Of a stretch of DNA of 64,000 nt, positions 17,650 through 61,947 are shown in pieces; position 1 is the stretch's first letter; every line of letters begins with the position of its first letter. The DNA lies in NCBI GenBank assembly GCA_951406725.2, contig OX597838.1:13330001-13394000 (forward strand), in the 5' to 3' direction. The DNA is from Octopus vulgaris (lineage: Eukaryota). The notes under the pieces are model-generated. The model was given only the letters and a program-made list of their open reading frames with translations, made no database searches and was not told the DNA's origin. Both the position numbers and the translations under genes were made by a program.

Positions 17650-18163
17650 CTAGCAGTATCGCCCGGCGTTGCTCGGGTTTGTAAGGGAAATAACTATATA
17701 AGCATTTTTAGAGAGTTACTTCCCTTATAGATGCCAATTCGGGCTTTCTTAGCCATTTCTGTTTTGGTGTCTTCAAGCCATGAAGCCGTTGTTCTAAAAG
17801 AACGCTGGTCTCCTTGACAACGCTTTGCGACGTTGATTTCCTTACACTCCCTTCCCCACAGCTTCACGAGGGAGGGAAGAAGGGGGAGAAGCAAACAGGT
17901 GCAGGTGTGACCATGGACGCCAACTCCGCCGCCATCGACACACGAAAAATTATGCATTAAAATGGAATAAAAAAAGGATGTTAAATTATTTTTAAAATCG
18001 TAGACTCATCGTAGACGCGCGCTAATACTCAGACGGGCTCGATATGAATCACGACTATAAGATACCCGAATTTGGTTAAACTGCACCGCAAAATGTGGGA
18101 GGAGTTAGGAATCTAAATCGAAGGGGACAGACACTCACACAACTACAGTTTTATATATATAGA
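17650..18163 (-). mobile_element. Non-autonomous Helitron with ~225-bp cargo
   Basis: A|TC 5' end, CCCG-AGCAACGC-CGGG hairpin, CTAG|T 3' end, no TSD. Confidence 0.9.
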
Positions 18164-56250: not shown

Positions 56251-56750
56251 TCTCTTATTATAAAAGGCAGATTTTATCTGCCTCCCTTTGGGAGTTATAC
56301 AAATCTACAATATAGGATTTCTTCAATTACAATTTACCTTGCATTTTTGAGAGTACAATGCATCGCGTCATGCCAGGTTCAGTTTTTAAAATTTAAACTC
56401 CAATTAAGCAAAATTTACAGAAAACTCACATTCCGGTGTGTGTGTCAAATGCTTTTCTTAGTCTGGTTTACAGCACACGCAAACGCACACACACAGTGGG
56501 CAACGAATAAAATGAAAGTAATTGACTTACTGTAATGAGTGATTCTTTCACTCTGCCTCCCACTTCCTCTTTCAACACATAGACACGCAAATATATAAAT
56601 AAAATTGTAAGCTAACGTGCGTGTGTGTGAGTGGGTGTGTGTGGGTGTGCGCGTGTGTGTGTGTGTGAGGGTGCGTGTGTGTGTGTGTGTGTGTGTGTGC
56701 GTGAGTGTGTGACAGGAAAGTTTTTTTACGACGAATATAACACCTATATC
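56251..56750 (+). mobile_element. Probable Helitron 5' portion
   Basis: A|TCTCTTATTATAAAAGG start; no 3' CTAG end found. Confidence 0.4.
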
Positions 56751-56763
56751 CAAGTAGCAGAAA

Positions 56764-57350
56764 GATAAGACAGTAAGGTGTGATTTGAGGGAGATTTGGC
56801 TGCTATTTCTACCATGTCTAGCTGCCATGTAGGGGTCTCCCTCATAGACTCATACATACATATATACATAGATAAGACAGTAAGGTGTGATTTGGGGGAA
56901 ATTTGGCTGCTATTTCTACCAGGTCTAGCTGCCATGTAGGGGTCTCCCTCATAGGCTCATACATACATATATACATAGATAAGACAGTAAGGTGTGATTT
57001 GGGGGAAATTTGGCTGCTATTTCTACCAGGTCTAGCTGCCATGTAGGGATCTCCCTCATAGGCTCATACATACATATATACATAGATAAGACAGTAAGGT
57101 GTGATTTGGGGGAAATTTGGCTGCTATTTCTACCAGGTCTAGCTGCCATGTAGGGATCTCCCTCATAGGCTCATACATACATATATACATAGATAAGACA
57201 GTAAGGTGTGATTTGGGGGAAATTTGGCTGCTATTTCTACCAGGTCTAGCTACCATGTAGAGGTCCCCCTCATTGGCTCATATATATATACATACATAAG
57301 ACAGTAAGGTGTGATTTGAGGGAGATTTGGCTGCTGTTTCTACCAGGTCT
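56764..57350. repeat. 107-bp tandem repeat x~5.5
   Basis: GATAAGACAGTAAGGTGTGATTTG recurs at 107-bp spacing; the ATTTGGCTGCTATTTC core resembles the reverse complement of ~49500-49520. Confidence 0.95.
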
Positions 57351-57666
57351 GTTAGGCCTTCTCATGTAAACTCAAGCTTTCTCATGCCTTCAACATAAGA
57401 CCAAAGCAGAGAATGTATTCTTTTATTCTTCTGCTTTTTCCAGCCATTGGTCTGTGGCCATGCTGGGGCAATGCCTTGAAGAATTGTAGTTTAATGAATC
57501 AACTCCACTTTTATTTTTGTAAGCATTGTACTTATTCTATCTGTTTCCTTTGTCAAACCACTAGGTGACAGGGATGTAAACAAACCAACATTCGTTGTCA
57601 AGCAGTGGTGGAGGACAATCACAAGCACAGACACGCACACACACATACATGCATACACATATACAC

Positions 57667-57701
<35 letters not shown>

Positions 57702-57719
57702 TGTGTGTGTATATATATA

Positions 57720-57979
57720 TTGCAGCGTGGAAGGTGTTTGTAAGCCATTTAAGAAACACACAAAAAACCGTTACATTCACTTCAACATTTAAATTTAATT
57801 TGCCAAAATATTTTCGTCGCTTTGAGACCGCGACCTGTTCACTGACAAAAATATCGTGCTAACAGGTCGCGGTCTCAAAGCGATGAAAATATTTTGACAA
57901 ATGAAATTTAAATGTTCAAGTGAATCTAACGGTTTTTGTGTGTTTCTTAAATGGCTTATAAACACCTTCAACGCTGCAA
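57720..57979. repeat. Long fold-back hairpin, ~120-bp arms, 21-nt loop
   Basis: 57720-57839 vs 57861-57979. Confidence 0.92.
57799..57849 (-). ncRNA. Hammerhead-like motif with swapped G3-C8 core
   Basis: UUUGUCA-GUGAACA-G-GUCGC/GCGAC-GAAA-AUAU-UU-UGGCAAA. Confidence 0.6.
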
Positions 57980-58143
57980 CTGTTTTCGTTCCAGCACACG
58001 ATCTCAGATCAAGTCACTTGCTATGCAAGTACATCTCTGTAACTATATATATATTTATATATATATATATATATGTATATTGGTAAAAACAGTAAGATAA
58101 CAAAAGAAAGAAAGAGACCTTAATATTATGTAAATAGAGGAAA

Positions 58144-58536
58144 TCTTTATATATAAAAGTGAGGTTGTGTGTCTGTCTCATACGATTTAGATTCCTAACT
58201 ACTCCCACATTTTGCGGTGCAGTTTAACCAAAACCGGGTATCTTATAGTCGTGATTCATATCGAGACCGTCTGGGTATTAGCGCGCGTCTACGATGAGTC
58301 TACGATTTAAAAAAAATTTAACATCAATTTTTCCCATTTTTAATCCATTTTTGACATATATAAGGGAAGTAACTCTCTAAAATTTATTATTAAATCTCAG
58401 AACGTAAAAAGCTACAGTAACACCCCTCCCCTTTGTGGTTAGCCATATTGAGATGGCTATTATACTTTACATCTCTAAAAATGCTTATATAATTATTTCC
58501 CTTACAAACCCGAGCAACGCCGGGCGATACTGCTAG
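58144..58536 (+). mobile_element. Non-autonomous Helitron with a different cargo
   Basis: TC..hairpin-CTAG termini; abuts a tail homologous to 6603-6668. Confidence 0.9.
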
Positions 58537-61597: not shown

Positions 61598-61795
61598 CAT
61601 CTATTAGCGACAGAGGTAATATTAATACCGAGGAAGTAATATTAATCCCACACTTAAACATGGATGTTCTGTTAGAACAAACTATACTGCGGTAGATATC
61701 ACGAGAGAAACTATCATATTGGCTTTTGGTGAATAATGCTCTCGTGTTTATATTGCTAACAGGGAGATAAATCCCCTCCACCTCCAGCACCGAGA

Positions 61796-61842
61796 CCACC
61801 AGATCACGTGATTTCAACCTTACTTGGTCTCGTCAGTGATGG
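61796..61842 (-). ncRNA. Type I hammerhead ribozyme in a pLTR-like segment
   Basis: CCAUCA-CUGACGA-GACC AAGUAA GGUU-GAAA-UCACGUGA-UC-UGGUGG; TATATAAATA ~85 nt upstream. Confidence 0.85.
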
Positions 61843-61947
61843 ACGCTCGACCGCTAGAGACAGTAGTAATTCGTCTCACCGCCAGTGATATATGGAATAA
61901 TAGCGTCAGGACAGACGCTGGTGTGGTATTTATATAGTGGTATTTAA

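What the first reader, a model, noticed from the sequence alone, without database searches (positions are those of the whole stretch)
57799..57849. Apparent natural G3-C8 swapped-core hammerhead
Seen: a complete HHR frame (7-bp stem I UUUGUCA/UGGCAAA, stem II GUCGC/GCGAC, GAAA, palindromic AAAUAUUU stem III) whose core reads GUGAACA instead of CUGANGA. The inverted duplicate at 57861-57901 has UGACAAA, which restores a perfect stem I. Established: positions 3 and 8 form a tertiary Watson-Crick pair in the active fold, so C3G+G8C is compensatory. Inference: a selected variant that CUGANGA-based searches would miss.
Basis: partly seen in the sequence, partly recalled or inferred. Interest (0 to 1): 0.8.

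Follow-up and report, generated by a model that had tools for sequence, protein, structure and literature searches.

The report
Swapped-core hammerhead in octopus retroelement
A family of Penelope-like jumping genes in an octopus genome carries a hammerhead-shaped RNA motif whose paired core letters are swapped (G-C instead of the C-G seen in its sister families), which likely makes it a natural compensated version of a self-cutting RNA that standard searches miss, although cutting is untested and this copy is probably inert.

Summary
The motif is real (minus strand, 57849-57799) and is a true hammerhead relative. It is the pseudo-LTR (pLTR) motif of a Penelope-like element (PLE) lineage. All 30 of 30 young autonomous copies (RT + GIY-YIG) carry G3-C8. 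A sister PLE found by protein homology alone (54% identity) carries the same scaffold with canonical C3-G8. Across these families, stems I, II and III change on both sides. An older family keeps G3-C8 while N7, loop II and stem III length differ. The G3-C8 copies form one side of a 100/100 branch. The extra G before stem II and U17 are known PLE-hammerhead traits. The window copy is a passenger: a truncated inverted pLTR inside a 2.3-kb non-autonomous Helitron, and it would fold into a long hairpin instead. No cleavage evidence was found: copy 5' ends cluster 60 nt upstream of the predicted cut, not at it. Other PLE families in this genome use U3-A8 and A3-U8, so all four Watson-Crick pairs occur. 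U3-A8 is published, and engineered C3G/G8C partly rescues a PLE hammerhead. I found no natural G3-C8 or A3-U8 in the papers I could search; three key papers were not held.

The parts
57799..57849 (-). Type I minimal hammerhead motif of a Penelope-like pLTR, G3-C8 core
   Evidence: homologous motif in autonomous PLE copies and in C3-G8 sisters
57843..57849 (-). Stem I, 5' strand (7 nt)
57836..57842 (-). Core positions 3-9 (GUGAACA): G3 = 57842, C8 = 57837
   Evidence: G3 in 40/40 and C8 in 36/40 free copies
57835..57835 (-). Extra G between A9 and G10.1, shared with the C3-G8 sister families
   Evidence: an extra nucleotide here is a PLE min-HHR trait (PMC4209133)
57816..57834 (-). Stem II (5 bp) and 9-nt loop II; the loop differs between subfamilies, the stem does not
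57806..57815 (-). GAAA, 6-nt palindromic stem III (A15.1 to U16.1, 57812-57807; likely pairs only between two copies) and U17 (57806); predicted cut 57806|57805
57799..57805 (-). Stem I, 3' strand (one G-U here; A-U in the autonomous parent)
57719..57860 (-). Inverted, tail-less pLTR arm that holds the motif (90-94% identical to other copies of the PLE family)
57861..58042 (+). Second pLTR arm, 5'-truncated inside the core, with the PLE 3' tail (about 57985-58042)
56251..58536 (+). Non-autonomous Helitron (about 2.29 kb) that carries the pLTR fragment as cargo; inserted between A and T, starts TC, ends CTAG
58509..58524 (+). Helitron 3' GC-rich hairpin, 12 nt before the end

Best explanation
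The motif is the pLTR hammerhead of a Penelope-like retroelement lineage in which the core pair is G3-C8 where sister lineages have C3-G8; the swap is likely compensatory and likely keeps a weak, dimer- or protein-assisted self-cleavage in the parent element, while the window copy is probably inert cargo of a Helitron. Shown: position in the pLTR of an RT + GIY-YIG element; homology to canonical sisters; double-sided changes in stems I, II and III and at 3-8; persistence of G3-C8 in an older and a younger family. Inferred: G3-C8 is the derived state; selection kept the pair; the short palindromic stem III forms between two copies in tandem transcripts; cleavage would be after U17. History of this locus (inferred): two reverse transcripts, one starting at the tail and one inside it, joined head to head into an inverted pLTR, which a Helitron later captured and spread as DNA.
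For: Parent element: RT + GIY-YIG ORF upstream of the motif in L162, L163, L231; 30 of 30 young copies have G3-C8. Sister found by protein alone (P0002, 54% identity over 742 aa) has the motif at the same place with C3-G8 in 30 of 30 loci; 1731 exact matches of the canonical sister pattern against 5 for the reversed control. On 12 family representatives 7 of 13 pairs change on both sides (0 of 500 shuffles as high; slid controls at most 3). The 3-8 pair is CG 9, GC 6, unpaired 0 in 15 rows. A tree of the region 3' of the motif puts 13 G3-C8 rows on one side of a 100/100 branch about 0.8 changes per site long. Across it U4, G5, A6, G10.1, C11.1, GAAA and U16.1 are invariant. An older family has G3 in 8 of 9 and C8 in 9 of 9 matches when both were left free, with N7, loop II and stem III length changed. 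Without the inverted arm, the parent pLTR folds stems I and II with probability 0.7-1.0. Engineered C3G/G8C partly restores cleavage of a PLE hammerhead that needs its protein (PMC11167929, passages). U17 occurs in 24 of 56 published PLE motifs (my count from PMC4209133 Fig. S3).
Against: No cleavage data. Of 68 arms picked by a 3' anchor, 27 begin at -6 to +4 around an AG about 60 nt upstream of the cut. Only 1 begins at the cut, and that one looks like an internal deletion. So uncleaved RNA is the template, as in the anole PLE, where cleavage was dispensable in vitro. The swap is one evolutionary event, so the cell counts overstate independence. Most sister and old copies were found with patterns that fix core letters; only P0002's family and escape this. 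The youngest sister carries A9C in all 51 motif instances, so active PLE lineages can tolerate core damage. Stem III is nearly unstable even as a dimer (-0.2 kcal/mol). G as the extra base is rare (1 of 56 published motifs; consensus H). Outer stem I pairs are poorly kept in sisters (72% paired). The tree is unrooted; direction rests on the universal consensus.
Confidence: 0.6

Rival explanations
1. The hammerhead fold, including the 3-8 pair, is kept for a job other than cutting, such as binding of the PLE protein or placing the reverse-transcription start; the G3-C8 form is folded but cleaves negligibly.
For: Copies come from uncleaved RNA. Cleavage-dead mutants did not change insertion in the anole PLE in vitro. 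PLE min-HHRs cleave poorly even as dimers, and the authors leave other functions open (PMC4209133). The young sister thrives with A9C. All four Watson-Crick pairs are fixed in some family, as expected if shape matters more than rate.
Against: The catalytic G12 and the rest of GAAA, U4, G5, A6 and U16.1 are invariant across the clade. The 3-8 pair is a feature of the active conformation (established; review PMC8495972, passage).
Confidence: 0.25
2. The ribozyme died in the ancestor of this lineage; positions 3 and 8 drifted and are complementary by chance.
For: A single origin. Given two changes, complementarity has roughly a 1-in-3 chance (inference). Either single change abolishes activity, so the path ran through a dead state.
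Against: About ten other core positions did not change on a branch of about 0.8 changes per site. N7, loop II and 15 of 89 flank positions differ between the old and young G3-C8 families (core columns there were fixed by the search pattern). Stem III stayed palindromic when its length changed. Independent U3-A8 and A3-U8 families show the same rule.
Confidence: 0.12
3. The 260-bp palindrome is a MITE, and the hammerhead pattern is a chance product of its internal repeats.
For: The window shows a near-perfect 120-bp inverted repeat.
Against: The palindrome centre differs from copy to copy, one arm has a tail, 44 of 98 insertions have no inverted arm, direct repeats are 8-14 bp, and the same sequence ends RT + GIY-YIG elements.
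Confidence: 0.02

Closest known systems
Minimal hammerheads (min-HHR) of metazoan Penelope-like elements, including the U3-A8 Cercyon variant (Cervera and De la Pena 2014, PMC4209133; read: main text parts 1-2 of 4, supplement parts 1-2 of 3)
   Same: Type I, in the pLTR, extra nucleotide between A9 and G10.1, G10.1-C11.1 pair, short palindromic stem III, frequent U17, copies in opposite orientation close together
   Different: Core pair is G3-C8; the 56 listed motifs start only with CUGA or UUGA. The extra base is G (1 of 56 there). Stem I is longer (7 bp). No cephalopod is in that list.
Engineered C3G/G8C mutant of the anole Poseidon (PAc) hammerhead (PMC11167929; read: passages)
   Same: Same swapped pair in a PLE hammerhead; partial rescue; tail formed by two reverse-transcription starts; no read ends at the cut site
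   Different: There a designed mutant, here the fixed natural state of an amplifying lineage
Natural U3-A8 core variants (Perreault et al. 2011, PMC3088659; read: passages)
   Same: Natural covariation at 3-8
   Different: The passages seen name only U3-A8
EN+ Penelope-like elements with a Cys linker between RT and GIY-YIG (Neptune/Nematis type; PMC8557442; read: passages)
   Same: RT then C-terminal GIY-YIG, a C-x3-C-x2-C linker, inverted 5'-truncated copy, tail at one end, (TA)n targets
   Different: Tail about 58 nt rather than 30-40; clade not tested by phylogeny
Non-autonomous Helitrons (end features recalled, not taken from a call)
   Same: A|TC start, 3' hairpin, CTAG|T end, head-to-tail arrays, captured cargo
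   Different: Cargo includes a PLE pLTR fragment; no autonomous partner was sought

Membership tests
Hammerhead ribozyme (PLE min-HHR) | Three-way frame: stem I, stem II, GAAA, A15.1-U16.1, H17 | tested here: met
Hammerhead ribozyme (PLE min-HHR) | Literal core consensus C3 U4 G5 A6 N7 G8 A9 | tested here: not met
   G3 and C8; no Rfam hammerhead match
Hammerhead ribozyme (PLE min-HHR) | Watson-Crick pair between positions 3 and 8 | tested here: met
   CG 9, GC 6, unpaired 0 in 15 rows; one origin
Hammerhead ribozyme (PLE min-HHR) | Covariation in the stems | tested here: met
   7 of 13 pairs change on both sides in 12 rows; slid controls at most 3; outer stem I weak
Hammerhead ribozyme (PLE min-HHR) | Extra nucleotide 9/10.1 and palindromic stem III | tested here: met
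   G instead of the usual H
Hammerhead ribozyme (PLE min-HHR) | Location in a PLE pLTR | tested here: met
Hammerhead ribozyme (PLE min-HHR) | Self-cleavage after position 17 | not testable with these tools
   Indirect test negative: 1 of 68 arms begins at the site; only contigs were available
Penelope-like element (parent) | Single ORF with RT and C-terminal GIY-YIG | tested here: met
   987-aa frame in L231 with YVDD and a Pfam GIY-YIG match over cut-off; no Pfam RT match, RT call rests on motifs and named homologs
Penelope-like element (parent) | pLTR, inverted 5'-truncated copy, tail at one end | tested here: met
   54 of 98 insertions inverted; tail on one arm; 17 of 98 with non-simple direct repeats of 8 bp or more against 0.14 in shuffles
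Penelope-like element (parent) | Clade (Neptune, Nematis or Poseidon) by RT phylogeny | not tested
   Only the Cys linker was noted
Helitron (carrier) | 5' TC, 3' hairpin + CTAG, insertion between A and T | tested here: met
   3' end seen in 27 of 30 loci, 5' anchor in 26 of 30; direct head-to-tail junctions in 5 loci
Helitron (carrier) | Autonomous RepHel partner | not tested
   not searched
MITE | Fixed terminal inverted repeats and fixed-length target duplication | tested here: not met
   Variable centre, one-sided tail, variable 8-14 bp repeats, RT parent

The most novel reading that the evidence does not exclude
Penelope-like elements of one octopus genome have fixed all four Watson-Crick pairs at hammerhead positions 3-8 (C-G, U-A, G-C, A-U) in separate successful lineages, and the G3-C8 and A3-U8 forms are active natural ribozymes not yet described. 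Each swap crossed a catalytically dead intermediate, so these families are a natural experiment in compensatory evolution and show that consensus-based ribozyme counts miss whole families of thousands of copies.
Probability: 0.45. Interest if true: 0.72.

Novelty: new variant of a known kind. Interest (0 to 1): 0.58.

Why it matters
The 3-8 pair was shown by designed mutants, and in nature I found only the U-A alternative in print. A G3-C8 lineage with canonical sisters in the same genome is comparative proof of that tertiary pair. It also gives matched natural constructs (C-G, G-C, U-A, A-U, plus an A9C sister) to ask the open question of what PLE hammerheads are for, given that cleavage looked dispensable in vitro. 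Practically, hammerhead descriptors and Rfam miss a family with over 2000 exact stem II matches in this genome.

Tried and rejected
Rfam: nothing relevant (the miRNA matches reflect the long palindrome and simple repeats). Conservation among the 30 best DNA matches was rejected as evidence: they are 91-98% identical Helitron copies that spread as DNA. MITE reading rejected (see rivals). The first GIY-YIG search (50 of 150 hits examined) did not find the parent; it was found through widely spaced inverted arms. My palindrome-requiring scan missed the sister motif; it was found by reading the sequence. Idea that U17 arose to compensate for G3 (prompted by a remark in PMC3884650, passage): rejected as a cause, because canonical sisters L285, L304 and L255 already have U17. 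Expression: no RNA holder listed; four runs laid were contigs only, so no ends or splice joints could be judged. Papers not held: PMC1986816, PMC4447102, PMC5785218 (Lunse et al., PLE hammerhead variants) and PMC3334697; any of them may report natural G3-C8. One supplementary file of PMC4209133 was not searchable and part 3 of the other was not read. 'Not in print' rests on searches only.

Full report
Observation. The motif reads on the minus strand from 57849 to 57799. It folds into stems I and II as described (-13.2 kcal/mol, z -2.14). A relaxed descriptor finds 2 sites in the window and none in 30 resampled windows. Rfam misses it. The inverted duplicate is on the other strand, starts inside the core and has lost C11.1.

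First layer: a Helitron. The 30 best genomic matches share 1.8-2.3 kb with the window at 91-98% identity. The shared unit starts TC after A and ends with a hairpin and CTAG before T (3' end in 27 of 30 loci, 5' anchor in 26 of 30), and it forms head-to-tail arrays. This is a non-autonomous Helitron at 56251-58536. Conservation among these copies says nothing about a ribozyme. A transcript across the palindrome would fold at -193.9 kcal/mol, against -136.0 with the hammerhead stems enforced. The window copy is probably inert.

Second layer: a Penelope-like pLTR. The stem II pattern has 2239 exact matches in G000 (control 0). Of 20 sampled matches, chosen to avoid the Helitron spacing, 18 lie outside the Helitron. 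They are short insertions with a variable palindrome centre and a tail on one arm. Of 98 distinct insertions 54 are inverted, and 17 have non-simple direct repeats of 8 bp or more (shuffles: mean 0.14, maximum 1). This matches PLE anatomy (PMC8557442, passages). Widely spaced inverted arms led to copies with an RT + GIY-YIG frame; L231 holds 987 aa with a GIY-YIG match over cut-off. The family is young (best copies 95-97% identical in protein). All 30 of 30 loci examined carry G3-C8 about 1 kb behind the stop codon. Three loop II versions occur on an unchanged core and stem II. In 40 free arms picked by a downstream anchor, G3 is in 40 and C8 in 36. Contigs from runs labelled as four organisms show no other letter at 5% or more at positions 3 and 8 (codes A, B, C, D; none confirmed as RNA).

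The comparison that decides it. The closest named homolog of the ORF is an Octopus vulgaris protein, P0002 (54% identity), which matches G000 at 100%. Its family, found with no reference to RNA, has a motif at the same place with C3-G8, the same extra G, a G-C to A-U change in stem II, changed stem I pairs and a changed 15.2-16.2 pair. All 51 instances in these 30 young loci also have A9C, and 50 have U17. Older sisters are fully canonical: 1731 exact matches against 5 for the control. One of them (L285) has the same inner stem I, A7 and U17 as the window motif, so within positions 3-9 it differs only at 3 and 8. An older family on the G3-C8 side has N7 = C, U or G, a highly variable loop II and a 4-nt palindrome. 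With 3 and 8 left free, 8 of 9 matches have G3 and 9 of 9 have C8. A tree of the sequence 3' of the motif separates 13 G3-C8 rows from 14 C3-G8 rows at 100/100, over about 0.8 changes per site (unrooted). In 15 representatives U4, G5, A6, the extra G, G10.1, C11.1, GAAA and U16.1 are invariant, and 3-8 is always paired. In 12 of these rows (the 3 old-family rows were left out because their shorter stem III misaligns) 7 of 13 pairs change on both sides. Caveats: one origin, and most rows were found by patterns that fix core letters.

Wider pattern. Other PLE families in G000 have C3-G8 (L084, L092, L122), U3-A8 and A3-U8. The A3-U8 motif lies beside a GIY-YIG frame in L101 and has 513 matches at up to one mismatch; 99 of the 100 listed are A3-U8 and one is G3-U8. 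No canonical sister was sought for that family, and its stem II is only 2-3 bp.

Does it cut? Unknown. Against: 27 of 68 arms begin at -6 to +4 around an AG 21 nt before the core, 7 run further upstream, and 1 begins at the predicted cut, which looks like a deletion. Stem III is marginal even as a dimer. For: the parent pLTR folds both stems with probability 0.7-1.0. U17 is in 24 of 56 published PLE motifs and an extra base is typical (PMC4209133). In the anole PLE the designed C3G/G8C double mutant partly restores protein-assisted cleavage, cleavage is not needed for insertion in vitro, and no reads end at the cut (PMC11167929). The negative 5'-end result is therefore normal for PLEs.

Novelty. 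PLE hammerheads and the U3-A8 variant are published. Nine literature searches gave G3-C8 only as an engineered variant and no A3-U8. Four relevant papers were not held, so priority is uncertain. Two unchecked notes of this scan describe G3-C8 candidates behind PLE RTs in other genomes; I did not test them.

Verdict. A real, lineage-fixed G3-C8 hammerhead variant of a known kind, with good comparative support and untested activity. This particular copy is a passenger. Interest 0.58.

Noticed in passing
L101 (G000:C4:866512-869775) and 513 genomic matches: A PLE pLTR hammerhead with an A3-U8 core, 2-3 bp stem II, palindromic stem III and C17; 99 of 100 listed matches are A3-U8. With C-G, U-A and G-C families, all four Watson-Crick pairs occur in this genome.
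   Followed up: partly
L251-L280: A very young sister PLE (99% identical copies, frames up to 1312 aa) has C in place of A9 in all 51 motif instances and U17 in 50; older sisters have A9 and mostly C17.
   Followed up: partly
L088-L130 (abundant 781-aa PLE family and relatives): pLTR hammerhead with U3-A8 core and A17 or U17.
   Followed up: partly
L231:6740-6766; L163:3368-3390: A branch-point-like, pyrimidine-rich stretch ending in YAG lies 21 nt before the core; 27 of 68 copy 5' ends cluster there, often with one extra G. Either a splice acceptor, as in Penelope, or a start site with a copied cap; unresolved.
   Followed up: partly
window 61785-61845 (minus strand): A second, canonical C3-G8 hammerhead motif with a palindromic stem III.
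   Followed up: no
window 56251-58536: The Helitron cargo also holds a 107-bp tandem repeat of variable copy number (56763-57350), microsatellites and a piece resembling the abundant short interspersed repeat of this genome. Its 3' hairpin recurs at 17677, 19819, 25100 and 36011.
   Followed up: no
L161 (G000:C1:32969400-32974200): An 850-bp inverted duplication in which both arms carry about 270 bp of non-family sequence in front of the pLTR and flanking DNA behind it.
   Followed up: no
P0082: A protein named as an octopus dynein regulatory complex subunit 6-like isoform contains a 71% identical piece of this PLE protein: exonisation or an annotation error.
   Followed up: no
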